DNA of 64,000 nt from Callorhinchus milii (taxonomy: Eukaryota): assembly GCF_018977255.1 (NCBI RefSeq), contig NW_024704742.1:84446001-84510000 (forward strand), read 5' to 3'. How positions within the stretch are numbered: position 1 is the stretch's first letter; each line of letters starts with the position of its first letter. Below, piece after piece: positions 813 through 13,440 of this stretch. Below the pieces are notes generated by a model. That model saw only the letters and a program-made list of their open reading frames with translations, did no database searches and was not told the DNA's origin. The translations under genes and the position numbers were made by a program.

Positions 813-2685
813 TTAGGGTTTGCAGAAGGTATTCATATCATGTCTGCTACACCCAACTTTGCAACATTTATTGATAATTCCATAAGTGTTTGCCCTTCTT
901 TCTGCGGTCTGGTACACTGTAGCTCCAAACGGCTGTATTGGTGCATTGTATTTCCCATTCTCAAGCCTCCACTCAAACGCCTTCATGTTATCTGTTTCCT
1001 CGGAGTATTCTTTGTCAGCTGATGGCAAGAAGGGATCTGGAAGAGAAATAATAATACTTTGATATAGAGTTTTATCATGCTGTTGAGATGTCTCACAGCC
1101 TTTCACAGGATAAACTGTAAAGTGAATTGACTGTATTTTGTGGACAAATCACGGCAGCCAATTGCTCACAGTAATATCCCACAAACAGTCAACGATTGAG
1201 TGACTACATTTTTTTTTGAGGGATTATTACCCCCAGAAAGCAATCCCCCAATCGACTAACTTACTGCTAGATAAACAGAAACGTGTGGAGTAAGGAATTT
1301 GTTTAAGGTTTTGCTCTACTCAGAGCCTACTTTCAGTGAGCACTGCAGACGATCCAGACAGGCACTTTGAACATCGTATTCAGAGATCCTAACAGGTCAG
1401 AACGACAGCAATTGGCCAGAGTCGAGTTAATAGATACAACACTCAACTGGTAAGAAGACCAGGGGAAGCCTGGCTGAAGGAATGGAGACAGAAACTGCTT
1501 AAAGCACCAGGCACTGGATCAGCCCTTTAATTCTATCCTTATTTTAAAGTGGAGACAGTACAGTAAATGGGAACCAGTTTATCTACTCTTACACCTGGCT
1601 CAGGGAACTACCTTTATTCACTGTTTGTCTGCTCCTCTTACAATTTTCTTCTTAGATTTTTCTATTCTATTCACAGTTTGAATATATACTATCTGGTCTG
1701 AAGTTATAAACACTGCTCTGTTATCTGTTTGGCATTGTTAAAAATCAATTACATTTCACTTGATACACCTACTGCCATCAACCTGAATGTCAAATGAGCT
1801 AACGAGATAACTTCTGAGACAGAATAGAGCTGGTAAAAGAGCTTCAGCCCGAGACTCACAAAACACTTTAGGAATGAATCTTTCACAAGCGATTTGCTAG
1901 CATATTTCAGAATTGTCAACCCTTTTCTTCTTCTCAGATCACAAATGAATAGTCTCAGTGCCTCTGACTTAGAGTTCCCCTGACAGCTATTTCAACGTTT
2001 TGTCCATGCACTGAGCTGCCACTACTTTGGAAATATTACTGGTAATCATAAAACTCACTGATCAATAATAATACATTCCTCAGATGTTTATAGTGTCAAC
2101 CTGAAACTGTGACATTGTTTAACTAAATCATAAATAATCACGTGCTGATCTATCTTAAATTCTCATTTGACTGACAACTGTTTTTCGGCACTAATTAATA
2201 ATACAGTAAACCTCACATAAGTGGTATCAGTTGGATTTAATATGAGTTTAATTTAATATGAGTTATGCAGTGTATGAGTTATGTCAAACTTGCATAGAAT
2301 ATAAACTATTGAACAAAACTTGGGCAGATGTATGACTTAGGCAATTATACTATTTACATAGATCAGACTTAGGCGAGCTTTACTGTAATAATAATAATCT
2401 TACATTTGATACAGAGGCTTTAGTCTCAAAATGCTTCACTGGATTTATTACAAAGTGGAGTGACTGAATGTTTAGTGGGCAAATTAACAGATATGGTTAA
2501 GAATACTCACTGTTTTCCCTGATATCTGACCTCCTGAACCACTGTTGGTCCATACAATAAAAGAAAATCATTTTTTTCAGTTTGTTGCCGCAATATTTTT
2601 GCTTCCCAGAGAGCACAGAGCCAGGAAAGGTGGAGAGCAGGAGCCCAAACAGCTCAACACACACCAGACACTTCATCCCAGCCAT
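813..2685 (-). CDS. Relaxin/insulin-like prepropeptide, copy 1 (2 exons, 132 aa)
   Basis: Exon 1 is 2685-2511 (donor A|gtgagt) and exon 2 is 1036-813 (acceptor ttccag|, stop TAA), joined by a phase-1 intron in the C-peptide as in insulin/relaxin genes. Signal peptide MKCLVCVELFGLLLSTFPGSVLS; B-chain CGNKLKKMIFFYC-MDQQW-FRR (C-x11-C); A-chain after RR: ANTYGIINKCCKVGCSRHDMNTFC (CC-x3-C-x8-C). TATAAAA upstream and AATAAA at 564-559. Confidence 0.92.
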
Positions 2686-2725
2686 TTATGCTGTCTCTAC
2701 GCTCCTCTGCTCCCTCTCTCCTCTC

Positions 2726-2732
2726 TTTTATA
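2726..2732 (-). promoter_or_regulatory. TATA box of relaxin-like copy 1
   Basis: TATAAAA about 40 nt upstream of the ATG, followed by gagaggagagagggagcag; nearly the same context precedes copy 4 (11984-12009). Confidence 0.6.
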
Positions 2733-4180
2733 GATTTCTTGCTCCCTTACATTAAACTCAACATTTTCTATGACTTTTCCCGCCCCTTCATCTGATGCCA
2801 CAATTCGTGACATTAAATGTGAACAAATGTTCCTAATTCTGTCCATATGAGGTGGGTAGCTGGGGCGAGAGAAGGCTCATCCTCCCCGCAATCTCCCTAC
2901 AGCTCTCCTCTTCACGGGGAGTTGGGATGGAAAGCCCTGAGGAGCACCACAGCCAGTCCTCCAAGCAACCCCAACCCATAGGCCTCCCTTTTGGCCCTCT
3001 CCCAACTTGTTGTCATGGCTGCCCACTTCCAGTCCAGCGGCTGCCCGTCAGGCCGTCCTCACCTCTGCCTATCTGACTCAGGGATGGCGGAGCCAGTGGA
3101 GCCAAACGAGAATGGCAGTTAGACCTGTCAGTCAAGCCCACAGCTCATCTGTTTTAAAGGGGACCACTAAGCGTTCCAAGACGCCGTCCGGGGTGAAGGG
3201 CGCTATATAAATGCATGTTGTTGTTGTTGTTGTTGTTGACCTTTAAGTGAGTTTTACTCAGCCTCTCCCCCCCACCCCCCAGAATATTTTTACCCACTGC
3301 CTATAGTTATGCCCCAACCCAATTTCGCCGTCAGTCTCATTACAGCCTCAAATCAGCATTAGTTGCGCCACATTGAGGAAGTCATAGACTTCCTCGGGTT
3401 CATAATCGGGCAGGATCCACTCAGCTTCCTCCGCCTCTACCACCCATTCCCCTCCCGCATCAGGCTCTGTGTGTTTAGCACTGCCATTCTCACTGGCTCC
3501 ACTGGCTCCACCATCCCTCAGCAGTTCAAAATCAAGATCCTCGTCCTCACATTCAAATCTCTCCGCAGCCTTGTTCACGCCCCACCCCAATACTTCTGGG
3601 ACCTACCACAACCTATTCAAGGCTGCATTATAATAATAGTATTAAGTATTCAGTTTGATGTTGCACCTTATCATTCGTTGAGAGGTCTGATTAAATTTAT
3701 AAAGCTTCAGATCAGTAAATGATGTCTAAGCTGTAAGATGAGCTTGATGTTCTATTTAAAAATTAAAGAACAGTTAAAGGAAGTTAGTAATTCACTCATC
3801 TCAAGACCCAAATAAAGTAATTGTATAACTAGACCTTTATACTGACTGTCACACGATAATACTTAAACCCTGCATCAGGAATATAGAAAGGAACCTTTTA
3901 CTCCCTTTTCCCCACTCCTCCACCATTTCTCATTGGTTTATGGTAGCACCTCTGTAACGCATTTCAAAATATGACCCCGTGTGACCCCTGACAATTGCTC
4001 TCAGGTATGTGATTTACAAGGATTCGTGAACACGTACTTATATATCAGAGCTGAAAAAGGACAGATACAATTTGAGCATCGAGTGTTGTGTGGTCTGAGT
4101 AGGATCATCGCCAGACGGAGTAAGAGCACCACACTGGTAAATGCGGTTGAGTCTTCGTGACTGATTACTTGTCAGACAAT

Positions 4181-11800: not shown

Positions 11801-11983
11801 ACGTTCTGTTCACTCTCTTCCAGCCTATTGTCTCTTCTCTTGTTAGTGTTATATCCTGAAAAATGTAGCTGTGGAGCTGTTCGTATCTCGGATCTGCAGG
11901 GCTGGAAAGGTCTCTGAGGTCATCAGAGAAAGGGGTGGGAAAGTGATTAGAAATGATGATTCCGAATCAGATAGCAGTACAGC

Positions 11984-11990
11984 TATAAAA
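11984..11990 (+). promoter_or_regulatory. TATA box of relaxin-like copy 4
   Basis: TATAAAA-gagaggcgagagggagcag, homologous to the copy 1 promoter. Confidence 0.6.
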
Positions 11991-12148
11991 GAGAGGCGAG
12001 AGGGAGCAGGTAAATTGGAGGAGGAGAGAGATAAACATATAATCATCTCTTGGAATCCACTCATCTGTGAGGTGAAGAGAGCAAGCACCATCGGACAGAG
12101 TGAGAGAAACACACACAAGTCTCTGAGACTGATCACTTTTGAGCTGAG

Positions 12149-13440
12149 ATGAAGGGTCTGGTGTGTGTCCTGGTGATTGTACTGTTACTCTCTTCTTTTC
12201 CTGGCTCTGTGCTGTCTCAGCACGATGAAGAGCTAATTCATCTGTGTGGCGTGGATTTCATCAGCGCAATCATCAGAGTCTGTAGAGAGGTCAGAATGTC
12301 ATCAGCTAACCAGGAACACAGTGAGTATCAGAAATCAAATTCACTAGTTAATGCTGAGAAACTTTGTGATCATTTAAAATCCAGAAGGACGTCTCAAAGC
12401 GTTTCACAGGGTATTCTGTAAAGTGTAGTGACTGTGTGTATTTTGTAGATAAACACAGCAGCCAATTTGTACACAGCAATGTCCGACAAACAGCCATAAA
12501 GTGAATGACCAGTTTTATTCGGGGGGATTGTTGGTCAGGACACTGGGAGAGACTCCCTGGTTTCCTTCGAGTTGTGCCATTAGATCTCTAATCACTACCT
12601 GAACGGACAGTTGGGACCTTGGTTAACATCTCATCTGAAAGTCAGTTCCCACAGCACTGCTCAGGAGTGTCAACCTAGATCATGTCTGCGACATGCCAAC
12701 TGGGACCACTTTGGGTCTGGAAAGGACCACAGCTAATGCCAACAGCCTCTTGAATGTCACTTTCTTCCACAAATCATGTTCCACTGGAATGAGAGTCCCA
12801 CATCTTGTGGGAGTCCAAACTCATAGTGACTCATGCTGGCTGATCTGCTGAATGGTCCCAGTTTTTATTTCAGAATGAGTCCGTTTGCCTGAGTCGGTAG
12901 CACGATCGAGTTTGAGTCAAAAGCTTGGGGCTTCAAGCCCTACTTTGGCACTTTGAACCTATATTGTTTAAGCTGACACTTCAATAAAGCTCTGAGAGTT
13001 TGATGCTTTGTTGGAGGTCTCATTCTTCGGATGAGATGTTAAATAAAGGCCCTGTCTGCCTGTTCAGGTGGATGTTAAACATAATAATAATAATCCTTGC
13101 ATTTGATACAGCGCTTATCATGTTCGTGCATCCAGCACCTGGAATCCACTTTGATTGCCTTGTAGAGAGACATTTCATGCTGGGATGTGTTGCCTGCAGG
13201 GAGATTCTGAAAATCAAGCTGATGTGCATTTAATTAGTTAATATCAATGGGATTGTTAATTTTGTTTCAGATTCCTCCCCGACCTCAGCTGACAAACACC
13301 ATTCAGAGGAGACGGACAAGAGGAAGAGGAGTGCGGAAATACTTGAGAATGTGAAACAGTACATATCAAGAGATAGTCCATTCCCAAATTGTTGTACGGC
13401 AGGCTGCACCAAAAAAGATCTCAGAAACTTTTGTTTGTGA
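12149..13440 (+). CDS. Relaxin/insulin-like prepropeptide, copy 4 (2 exons, 113 aa)
   Basis: Exon 1 is 12149-12320 (A|gtgagt) and exon 2 is 13271-13440 (tttcag|, TGA). B-chain HLCGVDFISAIIRVC aligns with relaxin-3 LCGREFIRAVIFTC; KRKR processing site; A-chain CCTAGCTKKDLRNFC. Confidence 0.92.

What the first reader, a model, noticed from the sequence alone, without database searches (positions are those of the whole stretch)
2511..12320. Conserved signal peptide with hypervariable mature peptide (toxin-like or reproductive-protein pattern)
Seen: the copy 1 and copy 4 signal peptides (MKCLVCVELFGLLLSTFPGSVLS vs MKGLVCVLVIVLLLSSFPGSVLS) match at 17 of 23 positions. The inter-cysteine B-chain residues (GNKLKKMIFFY vs GVDFISAIIRV) match at only 2 of 11. 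TATA context, splice flanks and 3'UTRs stay alignable. Established: this contrast is typical of positively selected secreted peptides such as conotoxins and seminal proteins. Inference: these could be rapidly evolving reproductive-gland, pheromonal or venom/spine-gland peptides built on the insulin fold.
Basis: partly seen in the sequence, partly recalled or inferred. Interest (0 to 1): 0.8.

Follow-up and report, generated by a model that had tools for sequence, protein, structure and literature searches.

The report
Divergent relaxin-like gene array, chimaera genome
A cartilaginous-fish genome carries a row of old copies of its relaxin hormone gene that kept the secretion signal and the six-cysteine frame but rewrote nearly all the rest of the hormone, much as mammals did with INSL4 and INSL6; whether selection drove this could not be settled.

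Summary
In detail: 17 of 23 signal residues against 2 of 11 inter-cysteine B-chain residues for copies 1 and 4. The four copies are two-exon relaxin-family genes: three intact (c1, c2, c4) and one pseudogene (c3). A fifth intact copy (c0) and relic exons lie just outside the window. The array sits between RIC1 and TYRP1. Its parent is a canonical relaxin gene beside JAK2, 6.5 Mb away. That gene has the same signal peptide, promoter motifs, C-peptide start and 3'UTR block, and a B chain that is 19 of 25 identical to human relaxin-3. The array copies lost the RxxxRxxI receptor motif. My own codon models give omega 0.28 for the signal, about 0 for the six cysteines (p about 1e-9) and 1.4-1.9 for the other B residues. 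That last value is significant only under one synonymous-rate assumption (p 0.01 against 0.20). Synonymous sites are saturated, and the signal region is also slow at synonymous sites. The genes therefore look functional, with a conserved secretion cassette and a diverged mature peptide. Positive selection and any reproductive or venom role remain unproven. This is a new member of a known kind.

The parts
813..1036 (-). c1 exon 2 coding part (rest of C peptide, RR site, A chain with CC-x3-C-x8-C, stop at 815-813)
   Evidence: Pfam Insulin PF00049 21.7 bits (cut-off 23). Best PDB match is relaxin A chain, E 0.011.
2511..2676 (-). c1 exon 1 coding part (23-residue signal, B chain C-x11-C, RR site); phase-1 donor GTGAGT follows at 2510
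2725..2732 (-). c1 TATA box inside the promoter block shared with c0, c4 and R
531..672 (-). c1 conserved 3'UTR block with AATAAA at 559-564
1381..1774 (-). c1 intron tract that is 89% identical to a tract beside a dead exon 2 upstream of the window; only two copies in the genome (young exchange or duplication tract)
4039..4046 (+). c2 TATA-like element
4181..4349 (+). c2 exon 1 coding part (signal; B chain with C-x12-C spacing and no Gly after the first Cys)
5247..5461 (+). c2 exon 2 coding part (C peptide without a dibasic site before the A chain; A chain)
   Evidence: Pfam 16.6 bits. PDB relaxin A chain E 0.017.
5444..5689 (+). c2 3'UTR block with AATAAA at 5596-5601
6431..6575 (+). c3 pseudogene exon 1; the donor GT is CT at 6576-6577 and the TATA box is lost
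8154..8326 (+). c3 pseudogene exon 2: two in-frame stops and a one-base frame shift before an A-chain remnant
11900..12148 (+). c4 promoter and 5'UTR block (TCATCAGAG motif at 11920-11928, TATA at 11984-11991), 69% identical to c0 over 321 nt
12149..12320 (+). c4 exon 1 coding part (signal; B chain 9 of 13 identical to the canonical gene between the cysteines, but both Arg of RxxxRxxI replaced)
13271..13440 (+). c4 exon 2 coding part (C peptide with KRKR, A chain)
   Evidence: Pfam 16.4 bits. PDB relaxin A chain E 0.048.
13555..13790 (+). Dead c2-like A-chain exon behind c4 (the two adjacent Cys codons deleted, a stop in place of Gln, an insertion)
13832..13964 (+). 3'UTR block of the dead copy, probably used by c4 (AATAAA at 13933-13938)

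Best explanation
The finding is the window's share of an old tandem array of relaxin-family genes lying between RIC1 and TYRP1. The array has four intact genes (c0 just outside the window, then c1, c2, c4), one full-length pseudogene (c3) and at least three relic pieces. They descend from the canonical relaxin gene that sits beside JAK2 on the same contig, 6.5 Mb away. From that parent they kept the secretion and processing cassette: promoter motifs, 5'UTR, a 23-residue signal peptide, a phase-1 intron in the C peptide, the start of the C peptide, mostly basic cleavage sites, and a 3'UTR block. They also kept the six-cysteine insulin fold. Nearly every other B- and A-chain residue has been replaced, including the RxxxRxxI receptor-binding motif. 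Inferred mechanism: each intact gene makes a secreted prohormone. In c0, c1 and c4 it is cut at basic sites into a disulfide-linked B/A peptide whose receptor-binding face differs from relaxin. These would be orphan or re-targeted ligands, comparable to mammalian INSL4, INSL6 and RLN1, which arose by independent duplication at the same locus. The signal stays conserved because it is under purifying selection, in shark orthologues of the parent gene as well; nucleotide-level constraint or old conversion at the 5' end helps. The B chain evolves at or somewhat above the neutral rate. Shown: anatomy, descent, synteny, scaffold constraint, rate contrast. Inferred: secretion, processing, new receptor specificity. 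Not shown: expression, positive selection, tissue.
For: Gene models with GT/AG splice sites and open spliced frames for c1, c2, c4 and for c0 and R. My R model equals the UniRef protein named Relaxin 3 of Callorhinchus milii at 171 of 172 residues. Family: A chains are CC-x3-C-x8-C with Gly before the third Cys in 4 of 4 intact copies. The best PDB match of the c1, c2 and c4 exon 2 translations is the human relaxin A chain, E 0.011-0.048. Pfam Insulin hits exon 2 of c1, c2 and c4 at 16-22 bits. Descent: a genome search with c4 exon 1 finds R at C1:77925653 (57% identity, E 8e-7). R shares the signal (13-16 of 20-23 residues), the TATA and TCATCAGAG promoter motifs, the C-peptide start and the 3'UTR block. 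R's B chain is 19 of 25 identical to human relaxin-3 (E 2e-10). A JAK2 kinase exon lies 15.6 kb from R (121.6 bits to JAK2 against 86 to JAK3). RIC1 (Pfam E 9.5e-48) and TYRP1 (PDB E 1.3e-92) flank the array. Selection, from my own codon-likelihood code on the array only: signal omega 0.28 (p about 5e-7 against 1), B 1.38, C 0.73, A 0.78; six cysteines omega about 0, 2dlnL 36-42, p 1e-9 to 1e-10. On R's own branch B omega is 0.06-0.15 against 1.26 in the array (LRT p 0.001-0.002). c3 shows what decay looks like here: lost donor, two stops, a frame shift and a lost TATA box. Shark orthologues of R keep the same signal (c4 matches them at 18 and 17 of 23).
Against: No transcript evidence was obtained. 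None of the array proteins was found in the protein collections searched, although R is there. In the array-only model, omega of the A chain (0.78, p 0.27) and of the C peptide (0.73, p 0.09) cannot be told from 1, so apart from the signal and the cysteines the constraint is weak. c2 has an odd C-x12-C spacing, lacks Gly after the first B cysteine and has no dibasic site before its A chain, so it may be decaying or act as a single chain. B-chain translations of c1 and c2 have no meaningful match to any solved relaxin or insulin B chain. The topology of the five genes is unresolved: all 15 trees lie within 1.7 lnL. Order and age of the duplications are therefore unknown.
Confidence: 0.75

Rival explanations
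1. One reading: recurrent positive (diversifying) selection on the mature B and A chains, as in conotoxins or seminal proteins, with the signal held constant as a secretion cassette. The products would be reproductive-gland, pheromonal or venom peptides.
For: Non-cysteine B residues have omega 1.86, p 0.010 against 1, when one synonymous rate is shared across the gene. B omega in the array is 1.26-1.38 against 0.06-0.15 on the parent's branch. c4 keeps 9 of 13 B-core residues of the parent but has replaced both Arg of the receptor motif. The mammalian duplicates at the same locus were reported as positively selected in the B domain (PMC551602, passages). Relaxin-like peptides are reported from shark testis, ovary and alkaline glands (PMC2805637, passage).
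Against: With the signal region's own synonymous rate in the model, omega of the non-cysteine B residues drops to 1.41 (p 0.20) and of the A residues to 0.90. Pairwise pS in B and A is 0.5-1.0, that is saturated, and most dN/dS values are below 1 or undefined. When B gets its own rate multiplier it runs to the bound, so both kinds of site are saturated. No tissue data exist, and nothing points to venom.
Confidence: 0.3
2. The mature chains drift neutrally because the copies have lost their hormone function and are slowly dying. The signal, UTR and promoter similarity is kept by non-allelic gene conversion or by nucleotide-level constraint, not by selection on a secreted product.
For: B omega cannot be told from 1 (p 0.15-0.27), nor can A and C in the array-only model. 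The signal region is slower at synonymous sites too (rho 0.35-0.45, p 5e-5 to 0.009). Exchange does happen in the array: an 89% identical 394-nt intron tract sits beside otherwise unalignable sequence, with two copies in the genome, and a dead exon is fused behind c4. One copy is a pseudogene and there are several relics.
Against: All six cysteines are kept in all four intact copies (omega about 0, p 1e-9 to 1e-10). Frames of 113-129 codons are open in 4 of 5 full-length copies, although branch lengths are about 0.9-1.5 neutral substitutions per codon. Signal identity is only 70-78% at DNA level with pS 0.28-0.59, so there is no young conversion tract there. The same signal is kept in the parent 6.5 Mb away and in two shark orthologues, which conversion inside the array cannot explain.
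Confidence: 0.12
3. The copies are ordinary members of already named relaxin-family genes (relaxin, relaxin-3, INSL3 or INSL5) that only look odd because cartilaginous-fish sequences are distant.
For: c4's exon 1 translation gives its best, though insignificant, PDB matches to INSL5 and INSL3 B chains (E 0.17-0.23). A-chain matches go to relaxin.
Against: The genome has its own canonical genes: R beside JAK2 with a relaxin-3-like B chain, and a second relaxin-3/INSL5-like gene near another JAK on C5. A published C. milii Insl3 is described with Arg kept and Leu at B27 (PMC11122137, passages), which none of c0-c4 shows. None of 4 intact copies keeps RxxxRxxI.
Confidence: 0.05

Closest known systems
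Mammalian RLN1, INSL4 and INSL6 (local duplicates of RLN at the JAK2-linked relaxin locus)
   Same: Tandem duplicates of the relaxin gene at the same ancestral locus. The cysteine frame is kept and the B domain evolves fast. Per the 2005 paper their functions were uncharacterised (PMC551602 passages; PMC3310001 passage; RFLB = RLN-like genes with JAK2, PMC2805637 passage).
   Different: Independent origin in a cartilaginous fish. Much older, with saturated synonymous sites and a star-like tree. The array now lies 6.5 Mb from JAK2-R, next to RIC1 and TYRP1. Positive selection is not demonstrated here.
The genome's own canonical relaxin (R; UniRef 'Relaxin 3', Callorhinchus milii, P0004) and its shark orthologues (P0005, P0006)
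   Same: Two exons with a phase-1 intron; the signal peptide (13-18 of 20-23 residues); promoter motifs; C-peptide start; 3'UTR block; A-chain CCxxGC.
   Different: R keeps a B chain 19 of 25 identical to human relaxin-3, with RxxxRxxI and the GGSRW tail. The array copies share only 4-9 of 13 B-core residues with R and have lost the motif.
Relaxin-like molecule of the male Atlantic stingray, which lacks the relaxin motif
   Same: A cartilaginous-fish relaxin-like peptide whose B chain lacks the relaxin-specific motif, as described in PMC551602 (passage and reference list).
   Different: I could not see its sequence, so orthology to c0-c4 is untested. Its glycosylation is known to me only from the title in that reference list. 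Among the array genes I saw one N-x-S sequon, in c4's C peptide and not in a mature chain.
Conotoxin-type gene superfamilies (conserved signal, hypervariable mature peptide)
   Same: The same contrast of conserved signal and diverged cysteine-framed mature peptide, with raised divergence at synonymous sites of the mature part as well. The conotoxin side is recalled, not checked here.
   Different: No evidence of venom expression. dN/dS above 1 is not established. There are few copies, and they are old paralogues, not a recently radiating family.

Membership tests
Insulin superfamily (Pfam PF00049) | Six cysteines: B chain C-x11-C, A chain CC-x3-C-x8-C | tested here: met
   c0, c1 and c4 have both spacings. 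c2 has C-x12-C in B and the standard A pattern. Even the pseudogene c3 keeps both.
Insulin superfamily (Pfam PF00049) | Profile match above the curated cut-off (23 bits) | tested here: inconclusive
   Only single-exon translations could be scanned. Exon 2 of c1, c2 and c4 scores 21.7, 16.6 and 16.4 bits. 0 of 4 exon 1 translations (c1-c4) hit the family. Spliced precursors could not be handed to the tool.
Relaxin family (RLN/INSL) | Two coding exons, with the intron inside the C peptide (signal-B-C / C-A layout) | tested here: met
   Phase-1 intron at the same place in c0, c1, c2, c4 and R. Layout as described in PMC2805637 (passage).
Relaxin family (RLN/INSL) | Gly before the third A-chain cysteine (CCxxGC) | tested here: met
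   4 of 4 intact copies and R, and 7 of 7 relaxin-3/INSL5-type proteins in alignment A3. Lost in c3. That this residue marks the family is recalled.
Relaxin family (RLN/INSL) | B-chain receptor motif RxxxRxxI/V | tested here: not met
   0 of 4 intact array copies keep it. c4 keeps only the Ile. c2 keeps the first Arg but with altered spacing. R keeps it. Motif as named in PMC2805637 (passage).
Relaxin family (RLN/INSL) | Descent from, and linkage to, a relaxin family locus (RFLB: RLN with JAK2) | tested here: met
   Same contig as JAK2-R. Homology to R runs from the promoter to the 3'UTR. The array itself is 6.5 Mb from JAK2, beside RIC1. That human RIC1 lies near the RLN cluster is recalled.
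Positively selected secreted-peptide families (conotoxin-like pattern) | Signal peptide much better conserved than the mature peptide | tested here: met
   Omega 0.22-0.28 for the signal against 0.9-1.4 for B; heterogeneity p 6e-9.
Positively selected secreted-peptide families (conotoxin-like pattern) | dN/dS significantly above 1 in the mature peptide | tested here: inconclusive
   Non-cysteine B residues: omega 1.86 (p 0.010) or 1.41 (p 0.20), depending on the synonymous-rate model. A residues: 1.16 or 0.90, not significant. Synonymous sites are saturated.

The most novel reading that the evidence does not exclude
The array is an old family of four or more orphan relaxin-like hormones, specific to chimaeras or to cartilaginous fishes. 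Their receptor-binding B-chain face has been repeatedly remodelled by selection on a fixed secretion cassette and cysteine scaffold. That would be a vertebrate hormone family evolving in the cassette style of conotoxins, perhaps serving reproductive accessory glands. It might also explain the motif-less relaxin-like peptide once purified from a male stingray.
Probability: 0.25. Interest if true: 0.65.

Novelty: new member of a known kind. Interest (0 to 1): 0.45.

Why it matters
Relaxin has long been noted for its erratic sequence evolution, and the mammalian locus is a textbook case of hormone birth by local duplication. A second, independent and much older expansion of the same locus in a slowly evolving cartilaginous fish would help here. 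Its parent gene is still almost identical to human relaxin-3 in the B chain, so the copies form a natural experiment on how a peptide hormone loses or changes its receptor while keeping its secretion machinery. It also gives concrete candidate genes for the relaxin-like peptides reported from shark and ray reproductive glands. If the copies prove silent or dying, the array is only an ordinary birth-and-death cluster.

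Tried and rejected
1. Protein searches. c4 exon 1 against longer proteins gave nothing at E<=1 among 19 candidates. c1 exon 2 against 1.84 billion representatives gave 3 hits, all unrelated repetitive proteins by Pfam. A profile of the four exon 1 translations gave nothing at E<=1 among 1721 candidates. The short queries and the huge database make these blanks weak. R itself failed the E cut-off with the c4 query and with the profile, although it is in the collection.

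2. Expression. No RNA holder is listed. Four runs guessed to be RNA were laid on 1-14100, and the cover is dominated by SINE repeats. One 189-letter contig of X1 (depth 2.6) lies on 882-1036 and its match stops exactly at the c1 acceptor, with 34 letters unplaced. This could be a splice. However, the same run also has low-depth contigs on non-exonic DNA (273-431; 2622-2842, which spans the TATA box), so I draw nothing from it.

3. Complex prediction of the c1 B and A chains gave no verdict.

5. The hit at C1:102.8 Mb (E 0.1) has no A chain nearby and was dropped. The Pfam hits on C28 and C14 lack the last cysteine and were dropped.

6. I first took the 89% intron tract for a transposon. It has only two copies in the genome, so it is a local duplication or exchange.

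7. Literature. Eight full-text searches found no paper describing this array. Subscription papers and supplements on the elephant-shark genome were not seen and may list these genes.

8. Earlier notes of this scan hold nothing on this place.

Full report
WHAT IS THERE. The window is G000:C1:84446001-84510000 of a 991.5-Mb assembly. Its first 14 kb holds four copies of a small two-exon gene.

- c1, minus strand: exon 1 2676-2511, exon 2 1036-813.
- c2, plus strand: 4181-4349 and 5247-5461.
- c3, plus strand: 6431-6575 and 8154-8326.
- c4, plus strand: 12149-12320 and 13271-13440.

Each intact copy reads signal peptide, B chain, C peptide, A chain. A phase-1 intron sits inside the C peptide, and the splice sites are GT/AG. 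c3 is a pseudogene. Its donor reads CT, its exon 2 has two in-frame stops and a one-base frame shift, and its TATA box is gone.

The regular-expression scan for the A-chain cysteine pattern gave 5 hits in the window. Four are these genes. The fifth is a chance hit in a GC-rich frame at 40231.

c1 and c4 share 17 of 23 signal residues and 2 of 11 residues between the B-chain cysteines. Fisher's test of signal (17/23) against B (4/22) gives p 0.0003. The promoter with its TATA box, the 5'UTR, the acceptor flank and a 3'UTR block align at 69-78%.

The contrast holds across the family, though less strongly in some pairs. Over the 10 pairs of intact genes the signal is 11-17 of 20-23 identical and B+A is 10-20 of 39-44. 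Signal against B is significant in 6 of 10 pairs.

THE ARRAY IS LARGER THAN THE WINDOW. In the 60 kb fetched upstream there is a fifth intact copy, c0, on the minus strand (L018, ATG at 8118). There is also a dead exon 2 with an early stop (L019, near 9527) and a stray 3'UTR piece (L018 9417-9535).

Behind c4 lies the 3' half of a dead c2-like exon 2. Its two adjacent cysteine codons are deleted, a stop replaces a Gln codon, and there is an insertion. It is followed by a c2-like 3'UTR that c4 probably uses.

A 394-nt tract of the c1 intron is 89% identical to a tract next to the upstream dead exon, and it occurs only twice in the genome. The sequence around it hardly aligns. Unequal exchange or partial duplication therefore does occur here. 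This is a birth-and-death array.

It is flanked by RIC1 upstream (Pfam RIC1, E 9.5e-48). Downstream is a tyrosinase-family gene whose first exon matches human TYRP1 at E 1.3e-92.

WHAT FAMILY. The A chains are CC-x3-C-x8-C with Gly before the third cysteine. Translations of exon 2 give sub-threshold Pfam Insulin hits of 21.7, 16.6 and 16.4 bits against a cut-off of 23. Only half of the domain can be scanned at a time, because spliced proteins could not be submitted. Their best solved relatives are human relaxin A chains, at E 0.011-0.048.

The B chains are much further off. c4 gives weak INSL5 and INSL3 matches (E 0.17-0.23). c1 gives only IGF-I at E 0.38. c2 gives nothing.

THE PARENT GENE. 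A six-frame search of the genome with c4's exon 1 found a gene at C1:77925653 (57% identity, E 8e-7), here called R. Its exon 1 is 100% identical to a UniRef protein named Relaxin 3 of Callorhinchus milii. My spliced model matches that protein at 171 of 172 residues.

R's B chain is 19 of 25 identical to human relaxin-3 (E 2e-10). A JAK2 kinase exon lies 15.6 kb from R (121.6 bits to JAK2 against 86 to JAK3). R is therefore the gene of the JAK2-linked relaxin locus, called RFLB in PMC2805637 (passage).

R shares many features with the array copies:

- the signal peptide (13-16 of 20-23 residues);
- the TATA box and the TCATCAGAG promoter motif;
- the intron phase;
- the start of the C peptide;
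- a 3'UTR block.

Two shark proteins named relaxin-3-like keep the same signal, and c4 matches them at 18 and 17 of 23 residues. The signal of this gene lineage has thus been conserved across cartilaginous fishes, in orthologues as well as paralogues.

No further copy was found elsewhere in the genome with the DNA or the protein query. A Pfam scan of the genome found the ordinary insulin and IGF genes and one more relaxin-3/INSL5-like gene near another JAK on C5.

WHAT CHANGED. None of the four intact array genes keeps the RxxxRxxI motif that R has (motif as named in PMC2805637). c4 is the most telling. It keeps 9 of 13 B-core residues of R, yet both arginines are replaced.

Basic cleavage sites remain in three copies:

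- c0: KRR after B and RR in the C peptide;
- c1: RR after B and RR before A;
- c4: R-x-x-R after B and KRKR in the C peptide.

c2 has none before its A chain, and it has an extra residue between the B cysteines.

RATES. Nei-Gojobori counts show the problem with paralogue comparisons. In the signal, pS is 0.28-0.59 and pN is 0.11-0.27. In B+A, pS is 0.52-1.04 and pN is 0.40-0.56. Synonymous sites there are saturated, and most ratios are below 1 or undefined.

I wrote a codon-likelihood program of GY94 type with F1x4 frequencies, branch lengths shared over regions, and gaps treated as missing. All 15 topologies of R, c0, c1, c2 and c4 lie within 1.7 lnL, so the tree is star-like.

Omega by region, all five genes:

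| Region | Omega |
|---|---|
| Signal | 0.22 |
| B chain | 0.90 |
| C peptide | 0.63 |
| A chain | 0.61 |

This beats a single omega (2dlnL 41, p 6e-9).

Giving R's terminal branch its own values yields B omega 0.06-0.15 on R against 1.26-1.27 in the array (LRT p 0.001-0.002). The array value does not differ from 1 (p 0.25-0.27).

With the array genes alone:

| Region | Omega | p against 1 |
|---|---|---|
| Signal | 0.28 | about 5e-7 |
| B chain | 1.38 | 0.15 |
| C peptide | 0.73 | 0.09 |
| A chain | 0.78 | 0.27 |

I then set the six family-defining cysteines apart. They have omega about 0 (2dlnL 36-42, p 1e-9 to 1e-10). The other B residues have omega 1.86 (p 0.010), and the other A residues 1.16, which is not significant.

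But the signal region has its own, slower synonymous rate: rho 0.35 with R included (p 5e-5), and 0.43-0.45 without R (p 0.007-0.009). With that in the model, the non-cysteine B omega is 1.41 (p 0.20). If B is given its own rate multiplier, it runs to the bound, which means both kinds of site are saturated.

Branch lengths are about 0.9-1.5 neutral substitutions per codon. The duplications are therefore old. As inference only, they may be of the order of the chimaera-shark split, since the array copies differ from R in the signal about as much as R differs from its shark orthologues.

READING. The six-cysteine result and the open frames in 4 of 5 full-length copies stand beside a copy that did decay. 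Together they argue that the intact genes are held by selection as folded, secreted peptides (inference).

The B chain has lost the constraint that keeps R almost unchanged, and it evolves at or somewhat above the neutral rate. That fits a change or loss of receptor.

Conservation of the signal reflects selection on the peptide. It holds in orthologues and in a paralogue 6.5 Mb away. There is also a nucleotide-level component that I cannot assign. It could be constraint on a promoter-5'UTR-signal block, or old conversion. No young conversion tract covers any signal region, where DNA identity is at most 78%.

My odds: relaxin-locus paralogue array 0.95; intact copies functional 0.6-0.7; positive selection on the B chain 0.3; reproductive-tissue expression 0.3; venom under 0.05.

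COMPARISON WITH WHAT IS KNOWN. The nearest parallel is the mammalian relaxin locus. There RLN1, INSL4 and INSL6 arose by local duplication (PMC3310001, passage). They were reported to be positively selected outside the cysteine motif, while RLN3 is under strong purifying selection (PMC551602, passages).

Relaxin-like peptides are reported from testis, ovary and alkaline glands of sharks (PMC2805637, passage). A stingray relaxin-like molecule lacks the relaxin motif (PMC551602, passage). I could not see its sequence.

A C. milii Insl3 described in PMC11122137 (passages) does not fit any of c0-c4.

Eight literature searches found no description of this array. The genome paper's supplements and RefSeq models were not available to me, so the genes may already be annotated.

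LIMITS. There is no usable RNA evidence. There are no orthologues from other species. The codon program is my own and has not been benchmarked. The C-peptide alignment is uncertain. Spliced precursors could not be sent to Pfam, to structure tools or to the protein searches.

Noticed in passing
window 7131-7963: An 833-bp tandem array of an 11-nt unit (about 78 copies, 80% matches) fills much of the intron of the pseudogene c3.
   Followed up: no
window 40245-41006 and 45469-45888 (+): First exon and a later exon of a tyrosinase-family gene. Exon 1 matches human TYRP1 structures at E 1.3e-92. The exon sits in a GC-rich island.
   Followed up: partly
window 57165-61075: About 2.8 kb of TG-rich compound microsatellite, followed by a (GTGA)n array. 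GC skew reaches 0.93. It creates very long spurious open frames.
   Followed up: no
window 4460-5130, 8660-9010, 12380-12530, 13050-13125, 14020-14140 and others: Many copies of a tRNA-headed SINE with a shared tail lie in the introns and flanks of all copies. They dominate the contigs laid from the sequencing runs.
   Followed up: partly
window 10340-11966 (-) and 29581-30308 (-): Long open frames that look like retrotransposon remnants; one has a reverse-transcriptase-like YVDD stretch. Not scanned against any family library.
   Followed up: no
first 15-20 residues encoded by exon 2 of c0, c1, c4 and R (window 1036-980, 13271-13330): The start of the C peptide (an ADK... acidic stretch) is conserved between array copies, R and two shark orthologues: 16-18 of 35-37 residues for c1 against c4. 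That is better than the hormone chains themselves. Its role is unexplained.
   Followed up: partly
L024 5480-5626 (G000:C1:77925480-77925626): The 5'UTR of the canonical relaxin gene R holds a roughly 150-nt CCA/ACC-type microsatellite just upstream of the start codon.
   Followed up: no
L010/L012 (G000:C1105) and L011/L013 (G000:C98): Two single-exon insulin/IGF-like domains, with B and A chains in one frame, lie inside long open frames of 687 and 409 residues on small contigs. Not examined further.
   Followed up: no
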